Shown: one piece after another, positions 4,092-21,780 of the stretch | Layout of the letters: each line of letters starts with the position of its first letter | Position numbering within the stretch: the first letter of the stretch is position 1 | Origin: an uncultured Dehalococcoidia bacterium | GTDB taxonomy: Bacteria; Chloroflexota; Dehalococcoidia; Lucifugimonadales; UBA826 | Direction of reading: 5' to 3' | DNA: 64,000 nucleotides | NCBI GenBank assembly: GCA_964409595.1 | Contig: CAYPDR010000018.1 | Coordinates: 56,064 to 120,063 of the forward strand | Made by a program: the position numbers and the translations under genes | The notes under the pieces: generated by a model | What the model was told of the DNA's origin: nothing | Seen by the model: the letters and a program-made list of their open reading frames with translations, nothing else | Database searches by the model: none

Positions 4092-4568
4092 CTACCCTAA
4101 AATTTGCACAATAATTTCCCGATGTTCTAGTTGGGTTGCCTTCTCTCCATCAAGTTCCACTATGAAGACCCTCTGCCATTCCCCGAGCGCCATGACACTG
4201 TCAATCACTGGAATTGATTCACTCGATCCCAAAGTTAGGTGCTGGCAGTGCGAATGGCCATTCGGGCACTCATTATCGTGCATATGCACAGTTCGCACGT
4301 CAAAGTCGTTGTGCTGATACTCGCCTTTACTTGAAGCGATCCCTTCCAACAGCCTTTTGAAATCTTCTATGAGAAGAGGTTCGTTTTCTTGAATAACTAT
4401 TGCAGCCGTTGTGTGTCGTGAGAAAACAACCGCAATACCATTTACGATCCCGGAAGCGACTACGCACTCGGCTATCTCTTCCGTTATGTCAATGAATTCC
4501 GGTGACTTCGATGTCTTGACTGTGAGGGTGTAAGAACGAGCTTTCATATCTACTTCAGAAACATTCAT
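4092..4568 (-). CDS. YjbQ/UPF0047 family protein (secondary thiamine-phosphate synthase-like)
   Basis: 158 aa. The SRHTTAAIVIQENE and NGHSHCQH motifs are typical of the YjbQ family. Confidence 0.8.
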   Translation of the reverse strand: MNVSEVDMKARSYTLTVKTSKSPEFIDITEEIAECVVASGIVNGIAVVFSRHTTAAIVIQENEPLLIEDFKRLLEGIASSKGEYQHNDFDVRTVHMHDNECPNGHSHCQHLTLGSSESIPVIDSVMALGEWQRVFIVELDGEKATQLEHREIIVQILG

Positions 4569-4769
4569 ATATTAGAAACCTCTAGCAACAACTGATATAG
4601 GTATAGGCGGGGGGAATCTAGACCTCACAATTCAGGAAACTTCTGCTATGTTAACCATTCTAACCGTTTTTGTTCATCTGTTCACCATTGAACTCTATTT
4701 GCAAATGTACAAAACAAATTGTAGTACAACATTCACCCACTATATTTCTCTGAACCAATTAACTGAGTT

Positions 4770-5525
4770 TCATGGTAAAACTAACGAATGAAGCCTGGAT
4801 ATCACTTGCTCAATTTTCCTTTTTGCCCTTCTTCGTCTAGAAAGGAATATCAAATACGGCATAACATTTTGAGGTAATAATGCTGCCTTAATTCGCTGCG
4901 ATCGGGTCATTGATTCCAGTCTGCCAGAAAAGGTTGAAACAGTATTTGATCTGGGATTATTTATACTTCGCAGAATCGCAAAGGGAACCCCGTATCTATT
5001 GCAAGCTTCGGCCACTAAAGTCCCATCACGTTCAATTAATAATGAGTCAAATTCCTCTCCCAGCCAAAGCTTCATGTTTTTGTTAGTCACAAATTCTGGA
5101 GCCGAGACGGCTCTGCCTCTAGGATAGGATCTTTTATTGTCATCATGATTTAGGTTATCGAATAGTGCTTGCAACGAACGACTTGAAGGCACATCGATAG
5201 GGCTGCCCGATCCTTTCGACCAGAGAGCCATAGGTCCATTTAGACTTATGATCTCCTCGCAAAGTATGACAGCTCCCACACTTACGGAAAAATCTAATGA
5301 AGTTCCAAAGCCAATTGATATTACAAAATTGGGCGAGTACTCACTAATCAATCTTTCCGTCGCCGTCAAAGTACTTTCTCCTGAGGCACCTGTGACAACG
5401 ACCATATCTTCCAGAAGTGGAGACATGTAGCTTGCAAAAGAACCGAAGTTTGAGATTGCTTTGAATCCGTTTCTCCGTAGGAACGGCTTAACTATGCCCT
5501 TTTCTGGTACCAAAATGCCTTTCAA
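4770..5525 (-). CDS. PNP_UDP_1 (nucleoside phosphorylase/MTAN-like) superfamily protein; possibly MqnB/HpnG-like
   Basis: The pattern VVVTGASGES...ISIGFGTSL...VGAVILCEE...VPFAILRSINNP resembles the MTAN/futalosine-hydrolase fold. The specific function is not resolvable from sequence alone. Confidence 0.5.
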   Translation of the reverse strand: MKGILVPEKGIVKPFLRRNGFKAISNFGSFASYMSPLLEDMVVVTGASGESTLTATERLISEYSPNFVISIGFGTSLDFSVSVGAVILCEEIISLNGPMALWSKGSGSPIDVPSSRSLQALFDNLNHDDNKRSYPRGRAVSAPEFVTNKNMKLWLGEEFDSLLIERDGTLVAEACNRYGVPFAILRSINNPRSNTVSTFSGRLESMTRSQRIKAALLPQNVMPYLIFLSRRRRAKRKIEQVISRLHSLVLP

Positions 5526-5577
5526 GACTACCTACCACATGCAGAGCTGTTTGTATCAATCACATCTTTCCATATAG

Positions 5578-6627
5578 TCAAAATTCTCGGTTAGCTAGAA
5601 AATGGGCGAGTTCGGTGAAATCATCCATCGCTTCTCTGCTCAATCGTGCTTGTCCCAACGCGTCTAATGCCTTATCGCAAAATTCTTCCGCTAAGCCTTG
5701 TGAATACTCCCTGCTCCGAACATCTTCCATGATTTCCAGTACTAGTTCCACATCCCCATCTCCTAATTCGTTCTTAGAATACACTTCTTTTAAAGTTTTT
5801 TTTGACACCCCTTGCGCTTCTGACATTGCATACACAAGAGGTAACGAGTTCTTTTTACGCCTAATATCGGATCCTACTGGTTTTCCAGTCAGATGTTCTT
5901 TACCCCAGGTACCCAAAATATCGTCTCTAATTTGAAATACGTGCCCTAGCGATCGCCCTGACCGGTGAAACATACTGACCACCTCGTCGTCTGCTTCTCC
6001 AATTATTGCTCCAAGGTGGATCGAACACCTTATTAAGGCCCCAGTCTTTCTAGCTATCATATTCATATATTGACGCAAACTTATGCTGGATTTCCCTTCG
6101 AAGGAGATATCCATATACTGACCTTCGATCATATCTAAACACGCTTCAGTTAGCAGCTCCACCTGTTTAACTGTCGTGCCAACGTGGATCTCCCCATAAG
6201 CCTCCAAGGACCTGTCCGCAACCATTCTAAGCACATCTCCAGCAACCAAAGCTTTAGGTACTCCCCAAACAGACCAAAGAGTAGGCCTGTGATGTCTGAT
6301 CTCATCAAAATCCTGTATTTCGTCGTGGATCAACGAAAAGTTGTGTATAAGCTCCAGAGATACAGCGGTTGGCATTGCATTTGTTGCCTTTCCACCTACA
6401 GATTCGCAGGCAAATAAGCATAATGAAGGGCGTAGCGCCTTTCCAGCTATACTTTCAACAGGTTTTCCTGTTTTATCTGCCCATCCCAAGCAATATCGCA
6501 GCATGTCATAAACTAAGATTGATTGATCAGAAATACTTATTTTCAGAGCCGCGGAAATTTCGTCCCTATACCTGTCCAATATTCTAGGGACGGCTGGAGA
6601 TATTTGAACTTTACGATCGTCTGCCAA
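5578..6627 (-). CDS. Polyprenyl diphosphate synthase (trans-isoprenyl diphosphate synthase family)
   Basis: First Asp-rich motif region LIHDEIQDFDEIRHHRPT and second motif FQIRDDILGTWG, similar to the actinobacterial Ids type. 349 aa. Confidence 0.85.
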   Translation of the reverse strand: MADDRKVQISPAVPRILDRYRDEISAALKISISDQSILVYDMLRYCLGWADKTGKPVESIAGKALRPSLCLFACESVGGKATNAMPTAVSLELIHNFSLIHDEIQDFDEIRHHRPTLWSVWGVPKALVAGDVLRMVADRSLEAYGEIHVGTTVKQVELLTEACLDMIEGQYMDISFEGKSSISLRQYMNMIARKTGALIRCSIHLGAIIGEADDEVVSMFHRSGRSLGHVFQIRDDILGTWGKEHLTGKPVGSDIRRKKNSLPLVYAMSEAQGVSKKTLKEVYSKNELGDGDVELVLEIMEDVRSREYSQGLAEEFCDKALDALGQARLSREAMDDFTELAHFLANREF

Positions 6628-6954
6628 TTTTTAAATACTCCCCCACGTGATCAAACCGGACTTCCATTATCTGATTTTCACTTCTACGCTTGGAAAATTT
6701 TATACTACTGACAATAGTTCTCTCTTCCTACTATTAGGCAATTTCAGAACGTTAACCACATATGAGATTCTCATAGGATCCTCACTCTCTGACTGAGATA
6801 CAAACACGCCAGTCGTTTTCACCTCTATTGTGCGTTTTTTCACTTGCTAGGAATACTGAGAATATGCTATATTTCGCCCGATAGAATAGGGGCGATTCAG
6901 GTCCAGATTAGCTGGACCACGTCCTCAAAATACTCGCAAGTATCGGCGGGAAGA

Positions 6955-7350
6955 ATGCTCGACGAATATTTCAGACAATACGGTGTGATTGCCATTTTCG
7001 CTGCGCTGGCAGTGGCCGTCCCGACAAGCATGTTAATTATCTCGTGGTTCTTATCAGTCGTAAAAATCAAACCTAATAATCCCTCCCCCGTAAAAAACAG
7101 CATTTACGAGTGCGGCTTTGAGACTATTACTGACCGTTGGAACAACTTCAACTTTCGTTACTACAGCATCGCACTCCTATTCGTCATATTCGATGTGGAA
7201 GTCGTTTTTTTGTTCCCATGGGCAGCTAGCTTCGGAACATTATCAGCAGAATTTGGATTTTTTGTGCTCGCCGAAATGGCAGTTTTTATAGGAATACTTT
7301 TGCTTGGGTGGTTATACGCATGGAAAAAAGGATCCCTAGAATGGAGTTGA
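6955..7350 (+). CDS. nuoA: NADH-quinone oxidoreductase subunit A
   Basis: The ORF track opens at TTG 6844. The NuoA-like sequence (three TM helices, YECGFE motif) begins at ATG 6955, preceded by GGCGGGAAG. Confidence 0.85.
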
Positions 7351-7973
7351 ATGAACAAGCCTTGAATGAAGATTCCTTGTTAGAAATCCCACTTCACGAC
7401 ACTACATGGGAACTCGATCTCCGTGAAGGTGAATATGTCAATCATCTGAAGTCCACCCACACAGAGTCCCTTGCTGAACCTATTATCGAAGTACCTGACG
7501 ACCTCCAAAGAAACATCGCAGTGACTTCCGTAGACGCCCTGATAGGTTGGGGCAGAAAATCGGCTGTTTGGCCGCTTTCATTTGGACTGGCATGCTGCGC
7601 TTTCGAAATGATGGCGAGCGCCATGTCCCGTTTTGACATATCTAGATTCGGAATGGAAGTGTTCAGGCCCTCTCCCAGACAAGCAGACCTCATGATTATC
7701 GCCGGGACAGTAACTTGGAAAATGGCTCCGGCAATAGAGAGGGTATATGAGCAAATGGCAGAACCTAGGTGGGTAATCTCGATGGGGGTCTGCGCAACCA
7801 GTGGTGGTCCCTACTATGGGTCCTATAGCGTCGTTCCAGGCGTAAACCACATCATTCCTGTTGATGTGTATGTACCAGGCTGCCCCCCTCGCCCGGACGC
7901 TCTTTTGTACGGCATCATGCAGTTACATGAAAAAATTAAACGATATTCTTTGAAGAATCGGAACCTATCTTGA
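7341..7973 (+). CDS. nuoB: NADH-quinone oxidoreductase subunit B
   Basis: Contains [20 protein letters not shown] and VPGCPPRP (the N2 cluster cysteines). ATG 7341 overlaps the nuoA stop; the ORF track opens at 7308. Confidence 0.9.
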
Positions 7974-8419
7974 CAAGGTTCTTGGACGGTGAGGCTTTAG
8001 CAAAAGCCATTGAAGAGCGAACTCCCGGATCTGTGATTAAAAGATCCGAATCAGGAATCTGGGTAAAACCAGTTAAAATCCTAGATGTGTGTAGAATCCT
8101 AAAAGACCCGTCTGGCTTAGATTTCTCTTATCTAACCTCCATAACAGCCATAGATTACGTGGAACATTTTGAACTTATTTATCATTTGCTTTCTATGAGA
8201 AACAACTATGGAGCCGTCGTGAAAACACTCTGCCCTGGCAGGAATGAACCCTCTCTACCCTCCGTAACAGGCGTATGGCAGGGAGCAGATCTGCAGGAGC
8301 GGGAAATCTGGGATCTGATGGGCATTAAATTTGAAGGTCACCCAAATTTGAAACGAATTCTACTTTGGGAAGGATTTGATGGACATCCACTCAGAAAAGA
8401 TTATCTGGATATCCAGTGA
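7970..8419 (+). CDS. nuoC: NADH-quinone oxidoreductase subunit C
   Basis: 149 aa containing [23 protein letters not shown]. Its TTG start overlaps the nuoB stop. Confidence 0.85.
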
Positions 8420-9522
8420 CTAATATACGTACCGAACCGGTTACTATAAATCTTGGACCACAGCATCCCAGTACCCATGGTGTTTTCAGATTACGTGTCA
8501 CATTTGATGGAGAAGAAATCATCGATGTTGAACCTGTATTCGGTTATCTTCATCGAGGCACTGAGAAATTAGCGGAATCGAGAAATTACGTACAGATAGT
8601 TACGCTGACGGACCGAATGGATTATGTTGCCAGCATGTCCAATAACCTTGCCTATGTTCGGACGGTGGAAAAATTGGCGAATATAGAGGTGCCAGAGCGA
8701 GCTCAATACATAAGGGTTATAAGCGCAGAACTGCAGCGAATAGCCAGTCATTTAATGGCCACTGGGTTCCTGCTGAATGACCTAGGGGCACTAGCAACTC
8801 CATTGATATATTGCTTCCGAGAGCGGGAAAGAATTCTGGACCTATTTGAAATGCTTTGCGGAGCAAGAATCACTTTGAGTTATATGCGCCCAGGCGGGGT
8901 ATTTCAAGACGCGCCTAGGGAATTTTGGGAATCACTGGACACCGTAATTGGAGACTTGCCGAACTATCTGGACGAACTCGAAACCTTAATCACATCTAAT
9001 GAGATAGTTTTGGCCAGAACGAGGGGTGTGGGTCTCTTGTCAGACGCTCAAGCCATAGACGCTTCGGTATCGGGGCCAAATCTGAGGGCATCCGGAGTTA
9101 AGTGGGATTTGAGAAAAGCAGATCCATACGAGATATATGACAGGATCAAGTTCAACACGCCTATTGGAAGTCTTGGTGACACCTTCGACCGATATTACGT
9201 CAGATTGTTGGAAATGAGAGAAAGCGTCCGTATTATATCTCAGTGTGTTGAACAAATTGAAGAAGGTCCGATACGAACCAATACGCCATTCTTCGTGAGG
9301 CCGCCTAAAGGGGAAGCATATTGTTCTGTAGAGGGGCCCAAAGGAGAATTGGGTTTCTATATGGTTAGTGATGGCAGCATCGCCCCCTACAGATGCAAAG
9401 TGCGAGCACCATCATTTCTCAATCTCACTCCACTGAGAGACATGCTCAAGGGTTGGAAAATGGGTGATCTTATCATCATACTGGGATCGATTGACATAGT
9501 GCTCGGTGAGGTAGATCGCTAA
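8416..9522 (+). CDS. nuoD: NADH-quinone oxidoreductase subunit D
   Basis: Contains [22 protein letters not shown] and the C-terminal GEVDR. 368 aa. Confidence 0.95.
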
Positions 9523-10739
9523 TGTCATTGGATGGGCTGATAGACTTCTATGTGATGGATCAATTTTTTGAATCTATTTTTGAATCTCTTGGCATGGGTT
9601 CAGAAACTGCCGGTATAGCAGCATTCCTAAGCGCCGGCATTACCATTTCCTTCATCGTAATCAACGTGATGATACTTTCAACAGCATTTTATACGTGGTT
9701 TGAGAGGCGTATATTGGGCAGATTTCAGGTCAGACGTGGACCAAACAGACACGGGCCTTTTGGCATCCTCCAACCTTTCGCAGACGTCTTGAAACTAATA
9801 ATGAAAGAAGACACCATCCCGGACGAAGCAGATAAGCCTGTCATGACTTTAGCACCGATAGCTTTGGTGGCACCCACTCTTCTTATTATCACAGTGATAC
9901 CGCTTTCAGAAGACTCTTTTCTGGGCAGTCTAAATATCGGGATACTATTTATAGTTGGTGTAACCTCAGTAAATTCCATAGCGATATTTATGGCTGGGTG
10001 GGGATCTAGAAATAAATATGCTGTTCTAGGTTCGATGAGAGGCGCTGCAATGTTAATAAGTTACGAAATCCCCATGGCTCTCGGCATAACCAGCGTCCTC
10101 CTTCTATCTGGTTCACTTGCAATGACCGAAATAATGAAAAGCCAACAGATTTGGTTTATCGCTGTGATGCCCATGGGATTCCTAGTATTTATGGCTGCCG
10201 CCACTGCTGAAATGAGCCGAACTCCTTTTGATCAGATAGAAGCGGAATCTGAACTTGGATCCGGATATAACACGGAATTCAGCGGTATTAAGTTCGCGAT
10301 CCTATTCCTGGCTGAGTTTATGGCACCGATTGTTACTGCTGCTGTCGTGACAACACTTTTCCTGGGCGGAACCAAAGGATTTGATCCCATACCTGGCCAA
10401 GTATGGTTCGCTACCAAAGCACTTATAGTCATATTTGTTCTGCTGTGGTTTAGAGCAACCTGGCCACGCCTTAGAGTTGATCAAATAATGGGGTTCGCAT
10501 GGAAAGGTCTTTTCGGACTAGGAATATTAAACATTTTCTTGGTAGCAACTGAAGTTTTTATACTGAGCATGAATGATGGCAAAATAACCGTCTCAGATAT
10601 GTTGATAATGGCTGGTGTTAACTGGCTAACAACAGCAGTGACTCTGGTCACTATAATGCACTTCCTGGGTAAAAAGAAATTCTATAGGCCGGAACCGATA
10701 CCTTCACCGTTAGCAAATATGGGAATAGAGGCAGACTGA
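9522..10739 (+). CDS. nuoH: NADH-quinone oxidoreductase subunit H
   Basis: Contains ERRILGRFQVRRGPNRHGPFGILQPFAD and is polytopic. Its start overlaps the nuoD stop, so nuoE, nuoF and nuoG cannot lie between them. Confidence 0.95.
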   Translation: MSLDGLIDFYVMDQFFESIFESLGMGSETAGIAAFLSAGITISFIVINVMILSTAFYTWFERRILGRFQVRRGPNRHGPFGILQPFADVLKLIMKEDTIPDEADKPVMTLAPIALVAPTLLIITVIPLSEDSFLGSLNIGILFIVGVTSVNSIAIFMAGWGSRNKYAVLGSMRGAAMLISYEIPMALGITSVLLLSGSLAMTEIMKSQQIWFIAVMPMGFLVFMAAATAEMSRTPFDQIEAESELGSGYNTEFSGIKFAILFLAEFMAPIVTAAVVTTLFLGGTKGFDPIPGQVWFATKALIVIFVLLWFRATWPRLRVDQIMGFAWKGLFGLGILNIFLVATEVFILSMNDGKITVSDMLIMAGVNWLTTAVTLVTIMHFLGKKKFYRPEPIPSPLANMGIEAD

Positions 10740-10741
10740 AC

Positions 10742-11413
10742 ATGTACGGACTTGGAGTAATAAGCGGATTAGGCGTCACTATGAAAAATTTCATATTGCC
10801 GCAGCGACAATTCAACATTCATCAATATCCTAATAGAAAGGCCAGTCCGAGAGATTTAGCAAAACTAGAGAACAAAAACACTCTTTATTTCATGCTGACC
10901 AGACCGAATAGAACCATCAAATCACTAATCGGACTGGAAACTATTCAGGAAAAATTGCCACAACATGATCGTTTCAGAGGCGAGGAATTTGCATGGTATG
11001 ACCAGAGATGCACAGGATGCGCCAGCTGCGCGAAATACTGCCCGTTGGGAATTATAAAAATTGTGACTGACACTAGCGGAGCCAACTTGCAAGAAGGGCA
11101 AAGCTACGATATAGAAGTATTCGATATTGATATCGGGCGCTGCATGTTCTGTGGATTGTGCGTAGAAGCCTGCCCTTACGACGCTCTCCATATGGGAAGT
11201 GGGTTTGAAGAGGGAAAATACTCACGTAACGAACTTGTTATAGATGTTAACCAATTAAAAAAAGCCGAGAAAAAACCCAGTACATGGTTCAGGCCCCAAC
11301 TATCTGATCGGGGGCACGATCCTATAGGAGGAGATCAGGCAGCGTGGGATGAAGTCGGCAGACATGAGAAACCTTCGCTCGGGGATCAGGAGGAAAGGTG
11401 GGCTAAAAGATGA
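10742..11413 (+). CDS. nuoI: NADH-quinone oxidoreductase subunit I (2x[4Fe-4S])
   Basis: Contains CTGCASCAKYCP and CMFCGLCVEACP. At 223 aa it is longer than typical because of N- and C-terminal extensions. Confidence 0.9.
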   Translation: MYGLGVISGLGVTMKNFILPQRQFNIHQYPNRKASPRDLAKLENKNTLYFMLTRPNRTIKSLIGLETIQEKLPQHDRFRGEEFAWYDQRCTGCASCAKYCPLGIIKIVTDTSGANLQEGQSYDIEVFDIDIGRCMFCGLCVEACPYDALHMGSGFEEGKYSRNELVIDVNQLKKAEKKPSTWFRPQLSDRGHDPIGGDQAAWDEVGRHEKPSLGDQEERWAKR

Positions 11414-11958
11414 CCCCGACAAGCGCTGCTGAAAATGCTTTGATTACAGAAATTATTTTCTGGATTATCGCCCTATCGACCGTAGTCTCTGCTATAGCAG
11501 TAGTTCAGATAAAAGACCTGTTTAGAGCGGCATTGTTTTTGATTGTGACTCTCCTGGGAGTAGCGGGAATGTTTATATTATTGCGGGCTGAATTTCTCGC
11601 CGGCGTTCAATTGATGATATATGTGGGGGCCATTTCCGTCCTGATAATTTTCGCGATACTTATGACAAGGGACATAGATGAGGGTAGTCCTTCGCACTCT
11701 TTCAGAATACCTGTGGCATTAATTTCCGTAATATTTATGGGCCTCGCAATCTATGTGGTGTCCAACACAGACTGGAATCTGTTAAGCCCACAGGCTTTGC
11801 CCGAAGATCAAATGGGTGATGTTCAGACGATTCTGTCAAATGGAATACCCAACCTCGCGAGCATGTTATTAAGAGATTTCGTACTAGCGTTCGAAGCGGT
11901 CTCACTGCTGCTACTAGCAGCAGTGCTAGGAGCGTTAGCATTAGTGAGAGGCCGGTAA
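11410..11958 (+). CDS. nuoJ: NADH-quinone oxidoreductase subunit J
   Basis: 182-aa membrane protein containing AGVQLMIYVGAISVL. The position in the operon fits nuoJ. Confidence 0.85.
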   Translation: MTPTSAAENALITEIIFWIIALSTVVSAIAVVQIKDLFRAALFLIVTLLGVAGMFILLRAEFLAGVQLMIYVGAISVLIIFAILMTRDIDEGSPSHSFRIPVALISVIFMGLAIYVVSNTDWNLLSPQALPEDQMGDVQTILSNGIPNLASMLLRDFVLAFEAVSLLLLAAVLGALALVRGR

Positions 11959-11961
11959 CAG

Positions 11962-12312
11962 ATGACATTGGAACGGTTTCTAATAATAGGCGCTATTTTG
12001 TTCGCTATTGGACTTTACGGTGCGCTTTCCAAAAGACATGCCATTGCAGTGTTAATGTCCCTGGAGCTAATGTTCAATGGGGTAAACTTGACAGCTGTTG
12101 CCCTATCTCGGTATACGATTCCAGCAGCATTATCGCAAAGCCAATATGCGATAGATAACGCGGCGCGTTTTATCCTAACAGGCCAAATATTCACTATCTT
12201 CATTATAACCGTAGCAGCAGCTGAGATTGCTCTTGGCCTTGCAATAATTATCGCAATATATCGATCTAGGCAAACCGTTCTTGTAACAGAAGCCTCAGAC
12301 TTAAGAAAGTAG
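11962..12312 (+). CDS. nuoK: NADH-quinone oxidoreductase subunit K
   Basis: 116 aa with three TM helices and LMSLELMFNGVNL...AAAEIALGLAI. Confidence 0.9.
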   Translation: MTLERFLIIGAILFAIGLYGALSKRHAIAVLMSLELMFNGVNLTAVALSRYTIPAALSQSQYAIDNAARFILTGQIFTIFIITVAAAEIALGLAIIIAIYRSRQTVLVTEASDLRK

Positions 12313-12321
12313 AATTTTATA

Positions 12322-12516
12322 ATGTGGACTGAGTACAAAATAACTCCGAACTTAGTGACCGCCGAAATGTGGAAGGACACTTTTGAGAGCGAGGGATTGC
12401 CAACAAAAATCTTGCCAGTCAAAGATATTATCTCGTGGGGGGAAAGGGTCACCTTCAGAATTTTTGTGCCTAAAGGCCGCGAACATGTGGCTGACGAAAT
12501 CCTAAGGAAACTTTAG
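12322..12516 (+). CDS. Small DUF2007-like (putative signal-transducing, PII-like fold) protein embedded in the nuo operon
   Basis: 64 aa. The pattern VTAEMWKDTFESEGLPTKI...VTFRIFVPKGREHVADEIL resembles DUF2007. It lies 9 nt after nuoK and 3 nt before nuoL. Confidence 0.55.
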   Translation: MWTEYKITPNLVTAEMWKDTFESEGLPTKILPVKDIISWGERVTFRIFVPKGREHVADEILRKL

Positions 12517-12519
12517 GCC

Positions 12520-14550
12520 ATGATTAATGAAACGCTCATATGGCTGATATTTTTTCTGCCTTTGGTATCTTTTGCCACTATATCGCTAATTATCAGACCG
12601 TTTCTAAATCAATATTCATTTATCTCTGGGCCTATTGCCATAGCCTCAATAGGGGCAGCGTTCATAATCTCGCTGCTTGCTCTTATAGAAGTCGCGAATG
12701 ACAGCAAGCACCTTGTGTTCGGAACTCATGAGTGGTTGACGATCGGAAATTTTAGAATGACCGTCGGCATATTTATGGACCCATTGACAGCCATTATGTT
12801 GGTAATCGTCACCGGAGTAAGTTTGTTGGTCCAAATCTATTCGATTGGCTATATGAAACCACCTGAAACACACAGTCTCAATGAAAATCCACCGCCCAAA
12901 AGCAAGGAGATTCCATACGAGCTAGGACAACCTGTATACGCCAGATATTTCGCTTACATGTCGTTGTTTACGGCCTCCATGCTCGGATTAGTGATGGCGG
13001 CTAACGTGATTCAACTATTTGTGTTCTGGGAGCTCGTGGGACTCTGTTCTTATTTGCTGATCGGGTTCTGGTTTCATCGACCGGCGGCGGCGGCGGCGGC
13101 CAAAAAAGCTTTCATAGTAACCAGAGTTGGTGATTTTGGTTTTCTTCTAGCGCTGATGTATCTATTCGCAAAGACCGCCACATCTGAGGATGGCCTAAAT
13201 TATTTGGAAATAGAGACAATCAACGTTCACCTTCCTGGTCTGTTGACCCCTTTGTCGCTAACATTAATTGTTTCCGGATTGTTTGTTGGAGCTATAGGAA
13301 AGTCGGGGCAGTTCCCTTTGCATACGTGGCTTCCAGACGCAATGGAGGGTCCCACCCCAGTCAGCGCCCTAATACACGCCGCAACAATGGTAACAGCTGG
13401 AGTCTTTTTGGTCGGTAGATTTTTCCCGATTTTTGAGGCCTCCCCCGACGCAATGACGTTGGTTGCTCTTATAGGAGGTGGAACCGCTGTCTTCGCGGCA
13501 ACATTGGGGCTGGTATCGAACGATATCAAACGTGTTCTGGCCTACTCCACAGTGAGCCAATTGGGGTACATGATGTTAGCTCTGGGAACCGGTGCATACG
13601 GAGCAGCCATTTTTCATCTTTTCACTCATGCTTTCTTTAAAGGCCTGCTGTTTCTCGGTTCTGGAAGCATCAACCATGCAACAGGCACTTTCGACATGCG
13701 ATTCATGGGCGGACTCCGTAAGAAGATGCCGGTCACTTACTATACATTCCTAATTGGAAGCCTTAGTCTAGCCGGAATATTCCCATTGGCCGGGTTTTGG
13801 AGCAAGGACGAAATACTCCTGAACGCGTTGGATAGCGGAATAAACGGAGGAAGCCTCACAAGCTTATTGGTGTTCATTCTAGGAATCACCGCGGTCTTCT
13901 TGACAGCCTTCTATATGTTCAGGGCATTGTTTATGACATTTGAAGGTGAATTTAGGGGCGGCTCTGATAAAGATCCCGAGTCGAAGGCACACGGTCCAGT
14001 CCATCTGGCTGAACCACCGTACACAATGTTGGTCCCCATGGTTATACTAGCCGTCCCTGCCATAGCAATAGGGTTTATCGCCAACTCTCCTTTCCAATTA
14101 GTAGGACTGAATGCTCACTGGATGTCCCATTTCCTTGATCCCAGTTGGCATGGGGCCGATTTCAACATAATTCTGGCAGTTGGCTCTTCCCTCATAGCCT
14201 TTCTGGGAATTCTCTTGGCTTTCCTTATGTATAAACCCAATCCGTCCATATCCCCATCTGCCCTTGGAGATGCGTTCAAACCTTTATACATTTTGCTACA
14301 CAGGAAATACTACTTTGATGAATTATATGAAAGGGTCCTGGTGAAAAGAATTTATTACAGGGGAATTGCCTTAGTTTCAGATATATTCGATAGAGAATTC
14401 GTGGATCGCATTGCGAATACTATCGGATGGCTCGGAGCCAACTTCGGCAGTGTGTTAAGACAAATCCAGAATGGTCAACTTCAGACATATGCAACAGCGA
14501 CGTCGATTGGCATCATCGTAATCGCCGCCATACTCATATTCGGTAACTAA
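12520..14550 (+). CDS. nuoL: NADH-quinone oxidoreductase subunit L
   Basis: 676-aa antiporter-like subunit containing WLPDAMEGPTPVSALIHAATMV and a C-terminal lateral helix region. Confidence 0.95.
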   Translation: MINETLIWLIFFLPLVSFATISLIIRPFLNQYSFISGPIAIASIGAAFIISLLALIEVANDSKHLVFGTHEWLTIGNFRMTVGIFMDPLTAIMLVIVTGVSLLVQIYSIGYMKPPETHSLNENPPPKSKEIPYELGQPVYARYFAYMSLFTASMLGLVMAANVIQLFVFWELVGLCSYLLIGFWFHRPAAAAAAKKAFIVTRVGDFGFLLALMYLFAKTATSEDGLNYLEIETINVHLPGLLTPLSLTLIVSGLFVGAIGKSGQFPLHTWLPDAMEGPTPVSALIHAATMVTAGVFLVGRFFPIFEASPDAMTLVALIGGGTAVFAATLGLVSNDIKRVLAYSTVSQLGYMMLALGTGAYGAAIFHLFTHAFFKGLLFLGSGSINHATGTFDMRFMGGLRKKMPVTYYTFLIGSLSLAGIFPLAGFWSKDEILLNALDSGINGGSLTSLLVFILGITAVFLTAFYMFRALFMTFEGEFRGGSDKDPESKAHGPVHLAEPPYTMLVPMVILAVPAIAIGFIANSPFQLVGLNAHWMSHFLDPSWHGADFNIILAVGSSLIAFLGILLAFLMYKPNPSISPSALGDAFKPLYILLHRKYYFDELYERVLVKRIYYRGIALVSDIFDREFVDRIANTIGWLGANFGSVLRQIQNGQLQTYATATSIGIIVIAAILIFGN

Positions 14551-14552
14551 CT

Positions 14553-16046
14553 ATGATAGTAGAAGAATTCAACTGGGTTTTAAGCATAGCGGTTTTTTTG
14601 CCCGTAGTTGGCGCAATTATCACGTTGTCGTTTCTGTCCGGTAAAGCCGCCAGAAGCTTCGCGGTAATAATAACCCTAACTGAACTCCTGATCACATCTT
14701 ACATATTTTTAGCTTACCGAAACGGTCCCGGCGGCTATCAAATGGCAGATCGCATAACCGGGTGGATCCCGATCGACTCCTTCAAAGTGGATTATTACCT
14801 TGCAGTCGACGGAATCAGTGCACCTCTTGTGCTCCTTTCAGGAATTCTAGGAATTGTCGCCGTATTTGCATCCTGGAATGTTACGCACAGAATGAAAGAA
14901 CATTTCATGTGGTTGCTGGCCCTGCAGGGGGCCGTTATCGGAGTATTCACCTCTCTAGATTTTTTCTTGTTCTTCCTGTTCTGGGAATTAGAACTCATCC
15001 CCATGTTTTTCTTGATATCCATATGGGGCAGTGGCAGAAAAGAATACTCCGCAATGAAATTCCTAATTTTCACTATATTGGGAAGTGCATTCATGTTGTT
15101 AGGAATTCTGGTACTGTACTTCTCCCTAGGAACTTTCGACATGACACAGATGCATGAAAAGCTAGAACATGCAACCCTCATTTTGCCTGCGTCGGTATTA
15201 TTTTTTCTGACTATCATCGGCTTCGCCGTGAAATTGCCGGTCTTCCCTTTCCACACATGGCTTCCCGACGCCCATACAGATGCTCCGACAGCTGCGAGTG
15301 TTATGCTGGCCGGTGTACTTTTAAAAATGGGAGGATATGGGATGTTACGGGTGTCGGCTTCCATATTCCCCGACCAACTCATTGAATTTTCGTGGCTTCT
15401 GGCCTCACTGGGAGTGATAAACATTATCTATGGTGCAGCAATAACAATTCGTCAAACTGATTTGAAGCGGCTCATAGCATACAGCAGCATAAGTCACATG
15501 GGTTTTGTACTGCTCGGTCTTGCATCCACCAACGGATCCGAAGTTGTTCTTGGTATGACAGGAGCAGCCTTACAAATGTTCACTCATGGGACAATTACAG
15601 CTCTTCTTTTCCTAACTGTAGGATACATATATGAAAGGTCACACACCAGGCATATCCCTGATTTAGGTGGCCTAGCTGGGAGGATGCCTTTCCTTGCAAC
15701 TGCACTACTCATAGCTGGTCTAGCCTCTCTCGGACTCCCAGGAACCAGTGGATTCGTAGCTGAGATAACAGTTTTTCTCGGAATTTTCCCCGCCTGGAAA
15801 CTTTTTGCCATCATCGGGGCTAGCGTAGTGATTTTGACGGCAGGGTACATACTATGGATGATTCAAAGATCGATATTCGGTCCGAGACCAACCCATCATG
15901 ACAATCTTACAGACGCAACTTTACCCGAGATGATCCCTATAGCGATTTTGGTGGTGAGTATCATAGGTTTGGGCATATACCCAGAGTTTGTTTCCAATAT
16001 TTTCAGTGAGGGTATATTGATGCTCCCACCGGAGATTGTAAATTAA
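14553..16046 (+). CDS. nuoM: NADH-quinone oxidoreductase subunit M
   Basis: 497 aa containing FHTWLPDAHTDAPTAASVMLAGVLLKMGGYG. Confidence 0.95.
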   Translation: MIVEEFNWVLSIAVFLPVVGAIITLSFLSGKAARSFAVIITLTELLITSYIFLAYRNGPGGYQMADRITGWIPIDSFKVDYYLAVDGISAPLVLLSGILGIVAVFASWNVTHRMKEHFMWLLALQGAVIGVFTSLDFFLFFLFWELELIPMFFLISIWGSGRKEYSAMKFLIFTILGSAFMLLGILVLYFSLGTFDMTQMHEKLEHATLILPASVLFFLTIIGFAVKLPVFPFHTWLPDAHTDAPTAASVMLAGVLLKMGGYGMLRVSASIFPDQLIEFSWLLASLGVINIIYGAAITIRQTDLKRLIAYSSISHMGFVLLGLASTNGSEVVLGMTGAALQMFTHGTITALLFLTVGYIYERSHTRHIPDLGGLAGRMPFLATALLIAGLASLGLPGTSGFVAEITVFLGIFPAWKLFAIIGASVVILTAGYILWMIQRSIFGPRPTHHDNLTDATLPEMIPIAILVVSIIGLGIYPEFVSNIFSEGILMLPPEIVN

Positions 16047-16047
16047 G

Positions 16048-17520
16048 ATGACCTTTCATGACCTGTACCTACTTTCTCCTGAGCTGAGTGTCGCTCTACT
16101 CGCTGCTATTGTGATTACCACGGACCTTTTATTCAAGAACAAAAGAATACTGCCTTTTGTAACAGTGGTTGGTCTAATAGTTCCTTTATTTTTCAGCGTG
16201 CATCTAAGTGGAACTACTGTACAGGACGGATTCTTTGGAGTGCTCAGGGTAGACAGTTTCAGCCTCTTCTTTAAATACCTTGTGCTGGCAGCTACAGCAA
16301 TAGTGGTGATCTCCTCAAACGAATATGCGAAGAGATTTGGAAACCACCAAGGCGAATATTACTCACTGATCTTGTTCTCATCTGTAGGGATGATGCTACT
16401 GGCTTCTACGACGGAATTGATAACTATGTACATAGCTCTCGAACTAGCTGCCTTACCAACAGCAGCACTTGCGGCTTTCATAAGAGAATCGCGATCAGCT
16501 GAGTCAGGTATGAAATTCTTAATATTAAGCGCGATAAGCTCTGCGATATTACTTTATGGAATGGTTCTTGTTTATGGATTCACGGGATCTAGCCAACTGG
16601 ATCAAATTGCGGCTAACATCACAGAGCTTGGTGTTAACTCAAGTCCCGCCTTAATATTAGGCTTAGTTCTTATAACCGCTGGTTTTGGATTCAAAATTTC
16701 CGCAGTTCCCTTCCAGATGTGGGCCCCAGATGTCTATGAAGGAACCCCAACTCCCATAACAGGATTTCTTTCCGTCGCCAGCAAAGCTGCTGGATTTGCA
16801 GTCATATTGAGGGTGTTTTACACAGCCTTTGGAGTTGATTCGTTTAACATGGATTGGGCCAACTTGATAGCAATCCTTAGCGCTCTATCCATGTCAGTAG
16901 GTAACCTAATAGCTATTAGGCAAGAGAATATAAAGAGAATGCTAGCGTACAGTACGATAGCTCAGGCTGGCTACCTGATGGTAGGCTTGGCGTCTGTTAC
17001 AGCCCTTCAGGGTTCCGCAGGTTTTGGAGCAGATAAAGCCGGTCCTTCGGGCGTGCTTTTCTACTTGGCCGGCTACGCAATGACTAATTTGACAGCATTC
17101 TCAGTAATCATCGCCATATCTAACAAAACCAACAGCGATATGATCGACTCATTCGCCGGATTGGTCAAAAAGTCACCTTTAATGGCAGCAGCGATGACAC
17201 TATCTATGATATCTCTAATAGGAATACCGCCAACTGTGGGATTCATGGCTAAGATCTATATCTTTGGAGCTGCAATGGACACAGGTTTATGGTGGCTGGC
17301 AACGATCGGTGTTATCAATAGCGTTATTTCGGCATACTACTACCTAAGGGTGGTGAAAGTGATGTTTATTTCTGAGGCCACGGAATCATTACCATTACGG
17401 CCAGATGTGGGAGCTGCGTCTGCTGCTATGGTAGCTATGATAGCCACTCTAGTTTTTGGTTTATACCCAGCGCCTATAATAAACTTTGCGTATAGAGCAG
17501 TTAGCACCATTATCAGTTAA
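16048..17520 (+). CDS. nuoN: NADH-quinone oxidoreductase subunit N
   Basis: 490 aa containing FQMWAPDVYEGTPTPITGF. It is the last gene of the operon. Confidence 0.95.
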   Translation: MTFHDLYLLSPELSVALLAAIVITTDLLFKNKRILPFVTVVGLIVPLFFSVHLSGTTVQDGFFGVLRVDSFSLFFKYLVLAATAIVVISSNEYAKRFGNHQGEYYSLILFSSVGMMLLASTTELITMYIALELAALPTAALAAFIRESRSAESGMKFLILSAISSAILLYGMVLVYGFTGSSQLDQIAANITELGVNSSPALILGLVLITAGFGFKISAVPFQMWAPDVYEGTPTPITGFLSVASKAAGFAVILRVFYTAFGVDSFNMDWANLIAILSALSMSVGNLIAIRQENIKRMLAYSTIAQAGYLMVGLASVTALQGSAGFGADKAGPSGVLFYLAGYAMTNLTAFSVIIAISNKTNSDMIDSFAGLVKKSPLMAAAMTLSMISLIGIPPTVGFMAKIYIFGAAMDTGLWWLATIGVINSVISAYYYLRVVKVMFISEATESLPLRPDVGAASAAMVAMIATLVFGLYPAPIINFAYRAVSTIIS

Positions 17521-17564
17521 TCTAGAGCTCAAGAGCAGAAGAAAAGTCAGCTGATTAGTAGAAT

Positions 17565-17589
17565 GGTAAACTAGAGCGCTTCGTTTACC
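17565..17589 (+). terminator. Possible stem-loop terminator after nuoN
   Basis: GGTAAAC-N11-GTTTACC forms a 7-bp perfect stem 45 nt after the nuoN stop. The U-tract is only weak and distal (..AGAGTTTT). Confidence 0.3.
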
Positions 17590-17631
17590 TTCCACAGAGT
17601 TTTACTATTGATATCCTATCCGGTGTAAATC

Positions 17632-18525
17632 ATGAATGACGGAAGTCGAATAGCCTTCATACATAATTCCAGGGTGCCAGAGACAGAGGTGAAGGCTAAA
17701 GAGTTAGTCACATCATTAAACTTGATGAATAGGGCTTGGATTTCTTCTGCGGGAGAACTTTCTAAAAGATCTGTAGACCTGGAAACTACTGACCTTGTCG
17801 TGGTTGTCGGTGGCGATGGCACCATTCTCAGAGCAGTGAGGTCCATAAGTCCTTATGAAGCACCTATAGTCGGCATAAACATGGGCAAGGTCGGCTTTAT
17901 GGCAGAACTGACCCCAAAGGAGGCAAAAGAACGTCTGCCAGAATTTATCGACTACACCAATCACGCCAATAGCCACATTCGAGTGGAAAAACGAATGATG
18001 CTGGAAGCTAGTATCGTCTCACCAGGGAGTACTAAACCAAATTTGTCTATTCATGCACTCAACGATATAACTGTAGGTACAAGCCAAGTATCTAAACTCG
18101 TGGAATTAGAAGCTTCTGTTAACAATGTACACCTCACGAAGTTCCGCGCAGATGCAATCATAATATCGACCGCGACGGGTAGTACAGGGTATGCTCTTTC
18201 CGCTGGTGGGCCAATAGTATTCCCAGAAGCTCAGATGATGATGCTTCAACCAGTAGCGGCACATACAGGACTTCGAGACGGACTCATTCTAGCGCCAGAT
18301 TCTGTGGTAGACCTAAAAGCTTCAGATGGATACCAAGCTTCAATCAGCGCAGATGGGTTCGTTGATTCTAAATTAGGACCGGGAGAGAAGGTAGAAATTA
18401 AGAAGAGTCCATACACCGCAAAATTCCTTAGATCTCACCAGCCTGATTTTTTCTTCACCGCTTTGAACATGCGATTAGGATCAGCATACAGATCCCAGCG
18501 GCCCCCCGAAGACTCAGGAGTATAA
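17632..18525 (+). CDS. nadK: NAD kinase
   Basis: Contains GGDGTILRA and STATGSTGYALSAGGPIV. Confidence 0.9.
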   Translation: MNDGSRIAFIHNSRVPETEVKAKELVTSLNLMNRAWISSAGELSKRSVDLETTDLVVVVGGDGTILRAVRSISPYEAPIVGINMGKVGFMAELTPKEAKERLPEFIDYTNHANSHIRVEKRMMLEASIVSPGSTKPNLSIHALNDITVGTSQVSKLVELEASVNNVHLTKFRADAIIISTATGSTGYALSAGGPIVFPEAQMMMLQPVAAHTGLRDGLILAPDSVVDLKASDGYQASISADGFVDSKLGPGEKVEIKKSPYTAKFLRSHQPDFFFTALNMRLGSAYRSQRPPEDSGV

Positions 18526-18527
18526 AA

Positions 18528-19067
18528 GTGAAGGAACACCCTCTGGATTACCGAACCATTCGATCAGAATTGAAGTATGAAGGTGTGATAGTGGATGTCA
18601 AGTTAGACAGGATTATCTTGGAGTCTGGTAAAGAGGTCTTTCGGGAAGTTGTAACCCACAAACCAGCTGTCGCTATTGCACCTTTAGATGATGATGGTAA
18701 CGTCCTTCTCGTAAGACAGTACAGGCACCCCGCAAGAGAAAAACTACTTGAAGTTCCAGCTGGACTCATAGAAGAAGGCGAGGAACCGGACGTTGCTGCA
18801 ATGCGTGAACTACAGGAGGAAGTCGGATTCGCATCTAACAACCTCCGATTGCTAGGTGGTTTTTGGTCCAGCCCAGGTTTTACAGATGAATATATGTATT
18901 GCTACTTAGCAAGCAACCTAATGAAAAGGGAGCTTCCGGGGGATGATGACGAGGAAATCACAACAGAACGGATACCTTTGGAAGAGGTTCATAAACTTAT
19001 CAAACTAGGGGAAATACAAGACGCCAAAACAATCGCATTACTTTTGATGATCGTTGACGTTTTCTAA
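18528..19067 (+). CDS. NUDIX hydrolase (ADP-ribose pyrophosphatase-like)
   Basis: Nudix box GLIEEGEEPDVAAMRELQEEVG. The GTG start lies 2 nt after the nadK stop. Confidence 0.85.
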   Translation: MKEHPLDYRTIRSELKYEGVIVDVKLDRIILESGKEVFREVVTHKPAVAIAPLDDDGNVLLVRQYRHPAREKLLEVPAGLIEEGEEPDVAAMRELQEEVGFASNNLRLLGGFWSSPGFTDEYMYCYLASNLMKRELPGDDDEEITTERIPLEEVHKLIKLGEIQDAKTIALLLMIVDVF

Positions 19068-19096
19068 TCAGCCACCATCCGCAAAGGAAATCATAT

Positions 19097-20455
19097 ATGC
19101 CGATACTTGATGACATGCTAATCCAAACAGAGGGTTTAGAAGAGGAACTAGTTGAACTTGAACAAGCTCTGGTCCGTATTCCATCTGTTAACACGGGATT
19201 CATGCCCACCGGTAACGAGACACCAGTATGTGCTTATATCCAGAATTGGTTGGCTAAAGATGATATCCAATCCGAAATCCTCGAGTCAGCTCCTAACAGA
19301 GGAAACATCATAGCCAAACTGGAAGGTGCATCAGGGGATGCGGGTCTTCTTTTTATGTCTCACACAGATGTAGTACCAGTAGAAGACTCAAATAAGTGGA
19401 CCTTCCCTCCGTTTAGCGCAGAAGTGCATAACGGCAGGGTTTATGGCAGAGGTGCTTCCGACTGCAAAGGATTGCTTACAGCTCAATTGATGGCAATGCG
19501 AATCTTAAAAAGAAACAGAATACAACTTCGTGATGGGTTGACATTGATATCGGGCGCAGACGAAGAACACGGCGGCAGATATGGTTTCGGTTGGCTGGCG
19601 GAAAATCATCCCGAGACTTTAAACGCACCGTTGGCAGTTAACGAAGGCGGAGGGACACCTATTGAAGCTGCGGGAGCCATGACATACATACTTGGCGTGG
19701 GTGAAAAAGGCCGTCTCCAAGTCGAGATTGACATAAAAGGTATTAGTTCTCATGCATCTGTTCCATGGCAAGGAACTAATGCACTCTATAGGCTTTCTGC
19801 ACTTTTGGAAAGGATCAAGGAATACGAGCCAGAGAGGGACACCTCCACGGGCTTATTCGAACACCTTTCTACCTTCGCCATTGAACATAAACCATCCCCA
19901 GACAACATAGATGACATCATCTTAGAACAGGAAGAAAAGAACCCTAGACTTGCCTCTATGCTAAAAGCATTATCCCGCATGACTATAACGCCTACAATGA
20001 TCAATGGGGGCATAAAGTCTAACAGCGTCCCAGAGCAGATCAGGCTAACTTGCGATGTCCGAACGCTTCCTCATCAAGACGAAACTTATTTACGAGTTGA
20101 ACTAGATAAAATAATCGACGGAATACAAGGAATTAACTATACAATCGACTACATGGCGGTTCCCAATTCGTCAGACTTCGAAACAGAATTAAAGAACAGC
20201 TTACAGATAGCGACAAGTAGAGCATTGGATAGAGATGACGTTCAATTTGTCCCTGCGATAAGTAACGGGTTTACGGACTCTAGGTTTACTAGACCTCTAG
20301 GAATAACTACTTACGGGTTCTCAGGATCACACCCAGATGACGACCCGATGCTAAGCAGAGCTCATGGCACCGATGAATCCATAGGTATAAAAAGCCTGGT
20401 CAGTGGAACAAAGATAATGCTCCACCTTGCTTATGATCTTCTTGCCGAAAAATAA
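19097..20455 (+). CDS. M20 family metallopeptidase (ArgE/DapE/CPG2-like)
   Basis: Contains MSHTDVVP, GRGASDCKG and ADEEHGG. 452 aa. Confidence 0.8.
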   Translation: MPILDDMLIQTEGLEEELVELEQALVRIPSVNTGFMPTGNETPVCAYIQNWLAKDDIQSEILESAPNRGNIIAKLEGASGDAGLLFMSHTDVVPVEDSNKWTFPPFSAEVHNGRVYGRGASDCKGLLTAQLMAMRILKRNRIQLRDGLTLISGADEEHGGRYGFGWLAENHPETLNAPLAVNEGGGTPIEAAGAMTYILGVGEKGRLQVEIDIKGISSHASVPWQGTNALYRLSALLERIKEYEPERDTSTGLFEHLSTFAIEHKPSPDNIDDIILEQEEKNPRLASMLKALSRMTITPTMINGGIKSNSVPEQIRLTCDVRTLPHQDETYLRVELDKIIDGIQGINYTIDYMAVPNSSDFETELKNSLQIATSRALDRDDVQFVPAISNGFTDSRFTRPLGITTYGFSGSHPDDDPMLSRAHGTDESIGIKSLVSGTKIMLHLAYDLLAEK

Positions 20456-20480
20456 CTATTCTTTGTTCAAACGCCAAACT

Positions 20481-21635: not shown

Positions 21636-21780
21636 TTCGTCGCGAATAGCCTCAGTTTTACCTACCTGGACGAAAAGTAATCTGCTATAAATCTCATTGT
21701 TCTGGAGGCAGAGGAATGTCAGCTGGAATCAACAACAACAGAAGCGATCACTTCTGAAATACCTTTCTAGAAGAGTCCAT

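What the first reader, a model, noticed from the sequence alone, without database searches (positions are those of the whole stretch)
12322..12516. Extra DUF2007-like 64-aa gene wedged between nuoK and nuoL
Seen in sequence: an ATG-initiated ORF lies 9 nt after the nuoK stop and ends 3 nt before the nuoL ATG, so it must be co-transcribed with the membrane-arm genes. Its sequence (..LVTAEMWKDTFESEGLPTKILP...VTFRIFVPKGREHVADEILRKL) fits the small ferredoxin-like or PII-like DUF2007 family, described as a putative signal-transducing protein.

Established knowledge: canonical nuo operons have no gene between K and L.

Inference: a lineage-specific accessory subunit, assembly factor or regulator of this complex.
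Basis: partly seen in the sequence, partly recalled or inferred. Interest (0 to 1): 0.55.

Follow-up and report, generated by a model that had tools for sequence, protein, structure and literature searches.

The report
Small conserved gene inside complex I operon
A real, strongly conserved 64-residue soluble protein of the uncharacterised DUF2007 family sits between nuoK and nuoL in the respiratory complex I operon of marine SAR202 and related Dehalococcoidia, which makes it a good but unproven candidate for a lineage-specific accessory part of that enzyme.

Summary
An ATG ORF at 12322-12516 (+) lies 9 nt after the nuoK stop and 3 nt before the nuoL ATG, inside nuoA-B-C-D-H-I-J-K-X-L-M-N, which has no nuoEFG.

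It is a real gene. Median dN/dS is 0.13, variation concentrates at third codon positions, and the AlphaFold2 model has pLDDT 92.8 with a beta-alpha-beta-beta-alpha fold.

In a sample chosen by NuoK rather than by X, X follows nuoK in every assessable relative with NuoK at or above about 50% identity. It is absent from all more distant operons, where nuoL follows nuoK directly. X (median 72% identity) is more conserved than NuoJ and NuoL.

The window protein does not hit Pfam PF09413. Divergent relatives, also in nuo operons, pass Pfam's cut-off and align end to end with X (hhalign 99.6%). X is therefore a divergent DUF2007 subfamily.

In one lineage the gene sits between nuoI and nuoJ. In five genomes the operon ends after X. 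The gene has moved or been cut off but has stayed in the operon.

The function is inferred. The most likely role is an accessory subunit on the cytoplasmic side of complex I. Assembly factor and PII-like regulator remain open. I found no paper describing it.

The parts
12322..12516 (+). X: 64-aa soluble DUF2007-family protein, MWTEYKITPNLVTAEMWKDTFESEGLPTKILPVKDIISWGERVTFRIFVPKGREHVADEILRKL. It has no transmembrane segment or signal peptide.
   Evidence: ORF and translation. Homologues. dN/dS 0.13. Fold b1(2-8)-a1(11-23)-b2(29-32)-loop-b3(45-50)-a2(54-63), pLDDT 92.8. DUF2007 link.
11962..12312 (+). nuoK (116 aa), immediately upstream of X. It carries a SAR202-type 13-residue insertion in the TM2-TM3 loop.
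   Evidence: PF00420 E 2.6e-25; alignment.
12520..14550 (+). nuoL (676 aa), which starts 3 nt after the X stop.
   Evidence: PF00361, PF00662 and PF01010. In relatives the gap from X stop to nuoL start is mostly 0-5 nt.
11410..11958 (+). nuoJ
   Evidence: PF00499 E 1.8e-30.
10742..11413 (+). nuoI (223 aa, longer than usual at the N-terminus)
   Evidence: Fer4 families.
9522..10739 (+). nuoH. It follows nuoD directly, so there is no nuoEFG in the operon.
   Evidence: PF00146 E 8e-105.
8416..9522 (+). nuoD
   Evidence: PF00346 E 3e-93.
7970..8419 (+). nuoC
   Evidence: PF00329.
7308..7973 (+). nuoB (start codon not verified)
   Evidence: PF01058.
6844..7350 (+). nuoA (mechanical ORF; the true start is probably further downstream)
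   Evidence: PF00507 matches residues 65-167.
14553..16046 (+). nuoM
   Evidence: TIGR01972 E 1e-154.
16048..17520 (+). nuoN
   Evidence: TIGR01770 E 3e-124.

Best explanation
X is a small cytoplasmic protein of the DUF2007 family (GlnB/PII-like fold class). It is made together with the membrane-arm subunits of an 11-gene, NuoEFG-less complex I, and it works as a lineage-specific accessory (supernumerary) subunit of that enzyme in SAR202 and related Dehalococcoidia.

Shown:
- It is a real gene under strong purifying selection.
- It is embedded in, and tightly packed within, the nuo operon across deep divergence.
- It has a compact beta-alpha-beta-beta-alpha fold.
- It is homologous to Pfam-certified DUF2007 proteins.

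Inferred:
- It is translated in step with NuoK and NuoL.
- It docks through its conserved helix-1 face (A14-E15-M-W17-K18, E22) and its beta3-helix-2 segment (VP..K/R.HV..E.LRK) onto the cytoplasmic surface of the complex. The likely site is near NuoJ/NuoK and the neighbouring NuoL, where it would stabilise or tune the membrane arm.
- The site is guessed from gene order only. X is always within one gene of nuoJ-nuoK, and it stays with nuoK when nuoL-M-N are encoded elsewhere.
For: Synteny among X-selected loci: all 80 genome loci that extend upstream of X have nuoK directly before X, and about 74 have nuoL directly after it.

Sample not selected by X (NuoK-selected): X is present in all 29 assessable loci with NuoK at or above about 50% identity, and absent from about 40 more distant operons.

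Four divergent subfamilies (34-48% identity to X) are also at the K|L junction: L086, L087, L088, L089, L090, L091, L092.

The gene moved but stayed in the operon. P0199 lies between nuoI and nuoJ on three independent contigs, while its 75%-identical relative P0345 lies at K|L.

In five genomes the operon ends A..K-X and nuoLMN are not within 6 kb.

Spacing: nuoK stop to X start is mostly -1 to 15 nt, and X stop to nuoL start is mostly 0-5 nt.

Constraint: dN/dS is 0.13. X identity has a median of 72% and holds at 64-75% in loci where NuoK has fallen to 40-57%; NuoL is 45-72% and NuoJ 33-73% across the same NuoK-selected loci. In the X-selected loci X ranks third, behind NuoB and NuoD.

Precedent: lineage-specific subunits of bacterial complex I are known. 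These include a response-regulator-fold protein, MSMEG_2064, in mycobacteria and Nqo16 in Thermus (PMC10068793), and three subunits in Paracoccus (PMC8115037).
Against: There is no physical evidence. No solved structure contains a sequence relative, and I found no proteomic or complexome data.

The tools return no multimer models or interface scores, so docking could not be tested.

Supernumerary subunits usually evolve faster than core subunits. X evolves more slowly than its membrane neighbours, which fits a ligand-binding or multi-partner regulator at least as well.

No feature of NuoK, NuoL or NuoJ was found to co-vary with the presence of X. The NuoK loop insertion is SAR202-specific, not X-specific.

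Gene order does not fix the binding site. A site on the peripheral arm is equally allowed.
Confidence: 0.4

Rival explanations
1. Assembly factor. X binds transiently to a membrane-arm intermediate, for example the NuoA-K module before NuoL/M/N join, and is released from the mature enzyme.
For: The operon position lies exactly at the boundary between the A-K genes and the L-M-N genes. X remains with A-K in the five split operons. It is a small soluble protein with no cofactor motif.
Against: Operon-embedded, apparently translationally coupled genes are more typical of stoichiometric parts than of chaperones. Sequence conservation is very high. No similarity to any known assembly factor appeared in Pfam or NCBIfam.
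Confidence: 0.2
2. PII-like regulator. X senses a small molecule (adenine nucleotide, NAD(P)H or similar) and reversibly binds a cytoplasmic face of complex I to throttle it, for example at the proton-uptake side of an antiporter-like subunit. The model is GlnK plugging AmtB, or SbtB binding SbtA, where the PII-like gene sits next to its membrane target (own knowledge of those systems).
For: DUF2007 homology is established. Foldseek lists PII-like SbtB, PstA, GlnK and PotN among the weak structural matches. X is more conserved than its membrane neighbours, as PII proteins are. The beta2-beta3 loop, at the position of the T-loop, is conserved within each subfamily but differs between them. NAD kinase and a Nudix hydrolase follow nuoN.
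Against: There is no Pfam hit to PII (P-II, PF00543) or any other GlnB-like family at E<=10. X lacks the fourth strand of PII proteins, and its loop is only about 12 residues. The Foldseek matches all have E >= 0.05. No nucleotide-binding motif was identified. Trimer formation is untested.
Confidence: 0.2
3. Electron-donor adaptor. Because the operon lacks NuoEFG, X could sit on the exposed top of the peripheral arm (NuoI/B/C/D) and help dock ferredoxin or a separately encoded input module. This would be analogous in role, but not in fold, to the small soluble cyanobacterial NDH-1 subunits such as NdhS (own knowledge).
For: Every X-containing operon examined has nuoD followed directly by nuoH, with no nuoEFG. 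One variant places X next to nuoI. No nuoEFG was found among the large ORFs of the window.
Against: In nearly all lineages X lies among membrane-arm genes. It has no similarity to NdhS/O/V folds and no redox motif. Whether these genomes encode NuoEFG elsewhere was not determined.
Confidence: 0.1
4. A passenger gene unrelated to complex I that happens to sit in the operon.
For: Nothing positive supports this, beyond the fact that its function has not been shown.
Against: All of roughly 120 contexts examined lie inside nuo operons, across X identities down to about 34%, and include a change of position within the operon. The gene is under strong purifying selection.
Confidence: 0.05

Closest known systems
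DUF2007 (Pfam PF09413, 'putative prokaryotic signal transducing protein'; solved example 2HFV)
   Same: Length is about 64-66 residues. The order of elements is the same: beta-alpha-beta-loop-beta-alpha. Divergent nuo-embedded relatives pass Pfam's cut-off over the whole model and align end to end with X. 2HFV appears among the Foldseek matches (TM 0.63). UniRef names the L. marina orthologue DUF2007.
   Different: The window protein itself gives no PF09413 hit. This subfamily has its own invariant signature (MW start, AEMWK, VPKGREHVADEILRKL) and a fixed place in the nuo operon. No function or genomic context of this kind is reported for DUF2007; the six papers that mention the name have titles and abstracts unrelated to complex I.
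Lineage-specific supernumerary subunits of bacterial complex I: MSMEG_2064 in mycobacteria, Nqo15/Nqo16 in Thermus, PdNUMM/PdNUYM/PdN7BM in Paracoccus
   Same: These are small soluble proteins restricted to one lineage and associated with the 14-subunit (or smaller) core. One of them has a signalling-type fold (PMC10068793; PMC8115037).
   Different: Those were found in purified or solved complexes, whereas X is only genomically linked. The fold is different. X sits in the middle of the operon, among membrane-arm genes, in a NuoEFG-less operon.
PII-like proteins encoded next to their membrane targets (GlnK-AmtB, SbtB-SbtA)
   Same: They are small alpha/beta proteins of a related fold class, co-transcribed with a membrane protein complex. 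SbtB is among the weak fold matches.
   Different: X lacks the fourth strand and the long T-loop. It has no PII Pfam hit, and no evidence for a trimer or for ligand binding. The analogy is a lead, not a finding.

Membership tests
DUF2007 (PF09413) | The protein itself scores at or above Pfam's gathering cut-off (25.7 bits) against PF09413. | tested here: not met
   There was no Pfam family at E<=1 or E<=10 (member 1), and no NCBIfam family.
DUF2007 (PF09413) | Demonstrable homology to proteins that do pass the cut-off. | tested here: met
   P0192 scores 35.5 bits and P0199 27.5 bits, matching model positions 1-64 and 2-65 of 66. The X profile finds them at E 9.1e-9 and 5.0e-8 in 1.84e9 proteins. 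hhalign of A1 against A4 gives 99.6%, E 1.4e-23, over 64 of 64 columns. Sixteen of 36 family members hit PF09413.
DUF2007 (PF09413) | Fold like the solved member 2HFV. | tested here: inconclusive
PII / GlnB-like signal proteins | Sequence match to a PII-family model. | tested here: not met
   No such Pfam or NCBIfam hit was found for X or for any of the 36 family members.
PII / GlnB-like signal proteins | A beta-alpha-beta-beta-alpha-beta core with a long T-loop, forming trimers that bind nucleotides at subunit interfaces. | tested here: not met
   The model has only three strands and two helices, and a loop of about 12 residues. Oligomeric state and ligand binding cannot be tested with these tools.
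Complex I accessory (supernumerary) subunit | Encoded with the core subunits, and co-occurring with them across the lineage. | tested here: met
   X is present in every assessable operon of the lineage and was never seen outside a nuo operon.
Complex I accessory (supernumerary) subunit | Physically present in the purified or imaged complex. | not testable with these tools
   No PDB chain is related by sequence. No complex I structure or complexome data for Chloroflexota turned up in the PDB sequence search or in the paper searches.
Core complex I subunits NuoA-N | Match to one of the core subunit families. | tested here: not met
   X matches none of them, while all eleven neighbouring genes do.

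The most novel reading that the evidence does not exclude
X is a PII-like sensor that reversibly caps a cytoplasmic proton-entry site or interface of the complex I membrane arm in response to a metabolite. That would be a GlnK-AmtB-type plug applied to a respiratory proton pump. It would also give the DUF2007 family its first function and reveal a direct post-translational switch on bacterial complex I.
Probability: 0.15. Interest if true: 0.75.

Novelty: new member of a known kind. Interest (0 to 1): 0.45.

Why it matters
SAR202 is one of the most abundant bacterial groups in the dark ocean, and its complex I appears to carry an extra, very strongly conserved gene that no annotation explains.

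If X is a subunit or regulator, three things follow. It adds a new fold to the short list of lineage-specific parts of bacterial complex I. It gives a first functional context to a widespread domain of unknown function. It also bears on how NuoEFG-less, 11-gene complexes are built or controlled.

A cultured carrier exists: Ca. Lucifugimonas marina JH545, with the orthologue at NZ_CP046146.1 approximately 1258751-1258942 (locus L071). The question can therefore be tested directly.

Tried and rejected
- **Direct family searches.** Pfam and NCBIfam searches of X gave nothing.
- **PDB sequence search.** The profile search gave only chance-level hits with E >= 0.28.
- **Foldseek against PDB.** Nothing reached E<=1e-3. 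The matches are generic small alpha/beta domains: KH, PrgK ring motif, SPOR, PII-like and 2HFV.
- **Promoter and terminator scans.** These were uninformative, with counts equal to shuffled controls.
- **NuoK insertion as docking site.** I considered the 13-residue NuoK loop insertion as a docking site for X. This was rejected because X-containing operons of other subfamilies have ordinary 102-104 aa NuoK.
- **NuoL length.** It does not separate operons with X from those without.
- **Other ORFs in the K-L gap of X-less operons.** I looked for hidden divergent X genes. None matched the family HMM, even with filters off (E>1). They look like low-complexity repeat translations, plus one ORF that by eye resembles a GxxExxY-type protein.
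- **Minus-strand ORF 12015-12452.** Rejected as a shadow ORF.
- **Artificial NuoK-X fusion model.** Not attempted, because the structure tool reports no inter-chain contacts or error estimates.
- **Literature.** Searches for DUF2007, SAR202 with nuo, and Chloroflexi complex I accessory genes found no description of this gene.

Full report
**Observation**

nuoK occupies 11962-12312 and ends in TAG. Nine bases follow, then an ATG ORF of 64 codons at 12322-12516. Three more bases follow, then the nuoL ATG at 12520.

The three genes share one reading frame. Pfam and NCBIfam identify the surrounding genes as nuoA, B, C, D, H, I, J, K, then X, then nuoL, M, N (6844-17520). An NAD kinase and a Nudix hydrolase follow. 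nuoD is followed directly by nuoH, so the operon lacks nuoEFG. None of the other large ORFs of the window scanned encodes them.

**Is it a gene?**

A 64-codon ORF is not evidence by itself: 77 ORFs of at least 50 aa overlap 3000-22000. This one, however, has 332 database relatives, and the 120 listed are all exactly 64 residues at 70-98% identity. A scan of one genome per species found relatives in 383 genomes.

Across 80 of these loci the median dN/dS is 0.13, and variation sits at third codon positions, with entropy 0.45 / 0.30 / 1.38. That also dismisses the overlapping minus-strand ORF 12015-12452.

AlphaFold2 with a 20-sequence alignment gives pLDDT 92.8 and a compact beta1-alpha1-beta2-loop-beta3-alpha2 domain. 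The sequence has no hydrophobic segment or signal peptide, so the protein should be cytoplasmic.

**Conservation at the junction**

In the 80 X-selected loci, nuoK directly precedes X wherever upstream sequence exists, and nuoL directly follows in about 74. Spacing is tight. The gap from nuoK stop to X start is mostly -1 to 15 nt, and from X stop to nuoL start mostly 0-5 nt.

That sample was chosen by X itself, so I drew a second one with NuoK as the query: 80 metagenome loci with NuoK identity from 83% down to 41%. The results were as follows:
- Every locus with NuoK at or above about 50% identity and enough downstream sequence has X directly after nuoK. That is 29 loci, 27 of them with full-length X.
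- None of about 40 more distant loci has X, even with the family HMM run without filters (E>1).
- In most of those X-less loci nuoL starts within about 0-30 nt of the nuoK stop.

So the gene is universal within a bounded lineage and absent outside it. The few longer K-L gaps in X-less operons contain only repeat-like translations or one ORF that by eye looks like a GxxExxY-type protein.

**Degree of constraint**

In the NuoK-selected sample, X is 64-86% identical to the window protein (median 72%). NuoK is 40-83%, NuoL 45-72% and NuoJ 33-73%. In the more distant relatives X holds at 64-75% while NuoK has dropped to 40-57%.

In the X-selected sample X ranks third in the operon, after NuoB and NuoD. 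That ranking is biased in X's favour.

**Family**

The window protein has no Pfam or NCBIfam hit. An exhaustive profile search of 1.84 billion representatives found only 108 proteins at E<=1e-3, so the family is narrow.

Among its divergent full-length members, 16 of 36 hit PF09413 (DUF2007). P0192 (35.5 bits) and P0199 (27.5 bits) exceed Pfam's cut-off of 25.7 bits across the whole model. Profile-profile comparison of the SAR202 group with these Pfam-certified proteins gives 99.6% probability over all 64 columns. UniRef already labels the Ca. Lucifugimonas marina orthologue as DUF2007.

Foldseek against the PDB gave no significant match. The DUF2007 structure 2HFV (TM 0.63) and PII-like proteins appear among many weak hits.

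I conclude that X is a divergent DUF2007 subfamily that falls below the Pfam model's sensitivity.

**Wider distribution and rearrangements**

At least four further subfamilies, 34-48% identical to X, occur in MAGs labelled Dehalococcoidia or Chloroflexi, in 'bacterium HR25', and on unlabelled metagenome contigs. Each is again at the K|L junction:
- L086 has A-B-C-D-H-I-J-K-X-L-M-N.
- L087 and L088 have A-C-D-H-J-K-X-L-M-N, without nuoB and nuoI in line.
- L090 carries an X with a 60-residue tail.
- L089, L091 and L092 also have X at K|L.

Two rearrangements are informative. P0199 lies between nuoI and nuoJ on three contigs from three sources, whereas its 75%-identical relative P0345 is at K|L. 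And in five genomes the operon ends ...J-K-X, with an oppositely oriented transporter gene and ilv genes following, and no nuoLMN within 6 kb.

The gene has therefore been moved and cut off, yet it has been kept inside the operon, always within one gene of nuoJ-nuoK. No family member was seen outside a nuo operon.

**Mechanism**

What is shown is a tight, ancient genomic and probably translational coupling to an 11-gene complex I, a small soluble signalling-type fold, and unusually strong constraint. Family-wide conserved positions are M1, W2, N10, A14, E15, W17 (invariant), K18, E22, G25, P50, H55 and L61-R62-K63. The beta2-beta3 loop is conserved within each subfamily but differs between them.

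My best reading (0.4) is a stoichiometric accessory subunit docked on the cytoplasmic side, probably near NuoJ/K/L. Lineage-specific subunits with signalling folds have precedent in the mycobacterial enzyme (PMC10068793).

The alternatives are:
- an assembly factor acting at the A-K / L-M-N junction (0.2);
- a PII-like metabolite-responsive regulator in the manner of GlnK-AmtB (0.2), favoured by the slow evolution of X but lacking any PII motif, fourth strand or long T-loop;
- a donor-docking adaptor for a NuoEFG-less enzyme (0.1);
- an unrelated passenger (0.05).

None of these can be separated with the present tools, which give no multimer models or interaction data.

**Novelty**

The DUF2007 label already exists in a public database for one orthologue. 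NCBI records call these proteins 'hypothetical'.

The literature I could search does not mention a gene between nuoK and nuoL in Chloroflexota, or any link between DUF2007 and complex I.

Lineage-specific complex I accessory proteins are a known kind, so this is a new, unvalidated member of that kind. It is of moderate interest, and a cultured organism is available for testing it.

Noticed in passing
window 17632-18525 and 18528-19067: An NAD kinase and a NudE-like Nudix hydrolase follow nuoN on the same strand. nadK follows nuoN in at least 51 of the 80 related loci, so NAD(P)-metabolism genes appear linked to this operon.
   Followed up: partly
window 11962-12312 (NuoK residues about 57-69): SAR202-type NuoK is 116 aa because of a 13-residue insertion (..LSQSQYAIDNAARF..) in the TM2-TM3 loop. 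The insertion is absent from E. coli NuoK and from other X-containing lineages.
   Followed up: partly
window 10742-11413 (nuoI) and 9522-10739 (nuoH): NuoI (223 aa) has about 80 extra N-terminal residues, and NuoH (405 aa) has about 60 extra C-terminal residues beyond the Pfam domains. Both extensions are conserved in length in close SAR202 loci.
   Followed up: no
L026, L049, L062, L063, L070 (X at 6001-6192 in each): The operon ends nuoA..K-X. In L063 an oppositely oriented MFS transporter and ilvB/N/C follow, and nuoL/M/N are not within 6 kb.
   Followed up: partly
L083 2391-2585, L084 2913-3107, L085 2532-2726: A Pfam-certified DUF2007 relative (P0199) lies between nuoI and nuoJ instead of between nuoK and nuoL.
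   Followed up: yes
L087 and L088, about 2900-12100: The gene order is nuoA-C-D-H-J-K-X-L-M-N, with nuoB and nuoI missing from the operon. They are presumably encoded elsewhere.
   Followed up: no
L092 2259-2444: An extra 61-aa 4Fe-4S ferredoxin gene lies between nuoJ and nuoK, in an operon that also has X.
   Followed up: no
L135 2833-3258: In an X-less operon, a 141-aa ORF lies between nuoK and nuoL. By eye it resembles a GxxExxY-type protein and it is not an X homologue. It looks like an unrelated insertion.
   Followed up: no
protein P0177 (89 aa): This ORF joins the C-terminal end of NuoK directly to the N-terminus of X, with no stop codon. It is either a natural fusion or a sequencing error.
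   Followed up: no
proteins P0176 (L090 5424-5789) and P0180: These X homologues carry a Pro/Gly/Ala-rich C-terminal extension of about 60 residues.
   Followed up: no
window 2271-3734, 4770-5525, 5578-6627 (all minus strand): Upstream of the operon and divergent from it are SufB, a nucleosidase with weak similarity to futalosine hydrolase, and a polyprenyl diphosphate synthase. The last two are possibly related to quinone synthesis.
   Followed up: no
cluster member HJO57843.1 and L077: X orthologues on short contigs are labelled Nitrospinaceae and Thermoflexus. These are probably mis-binned Dehalococcoidia fragments.
   Followed up: no
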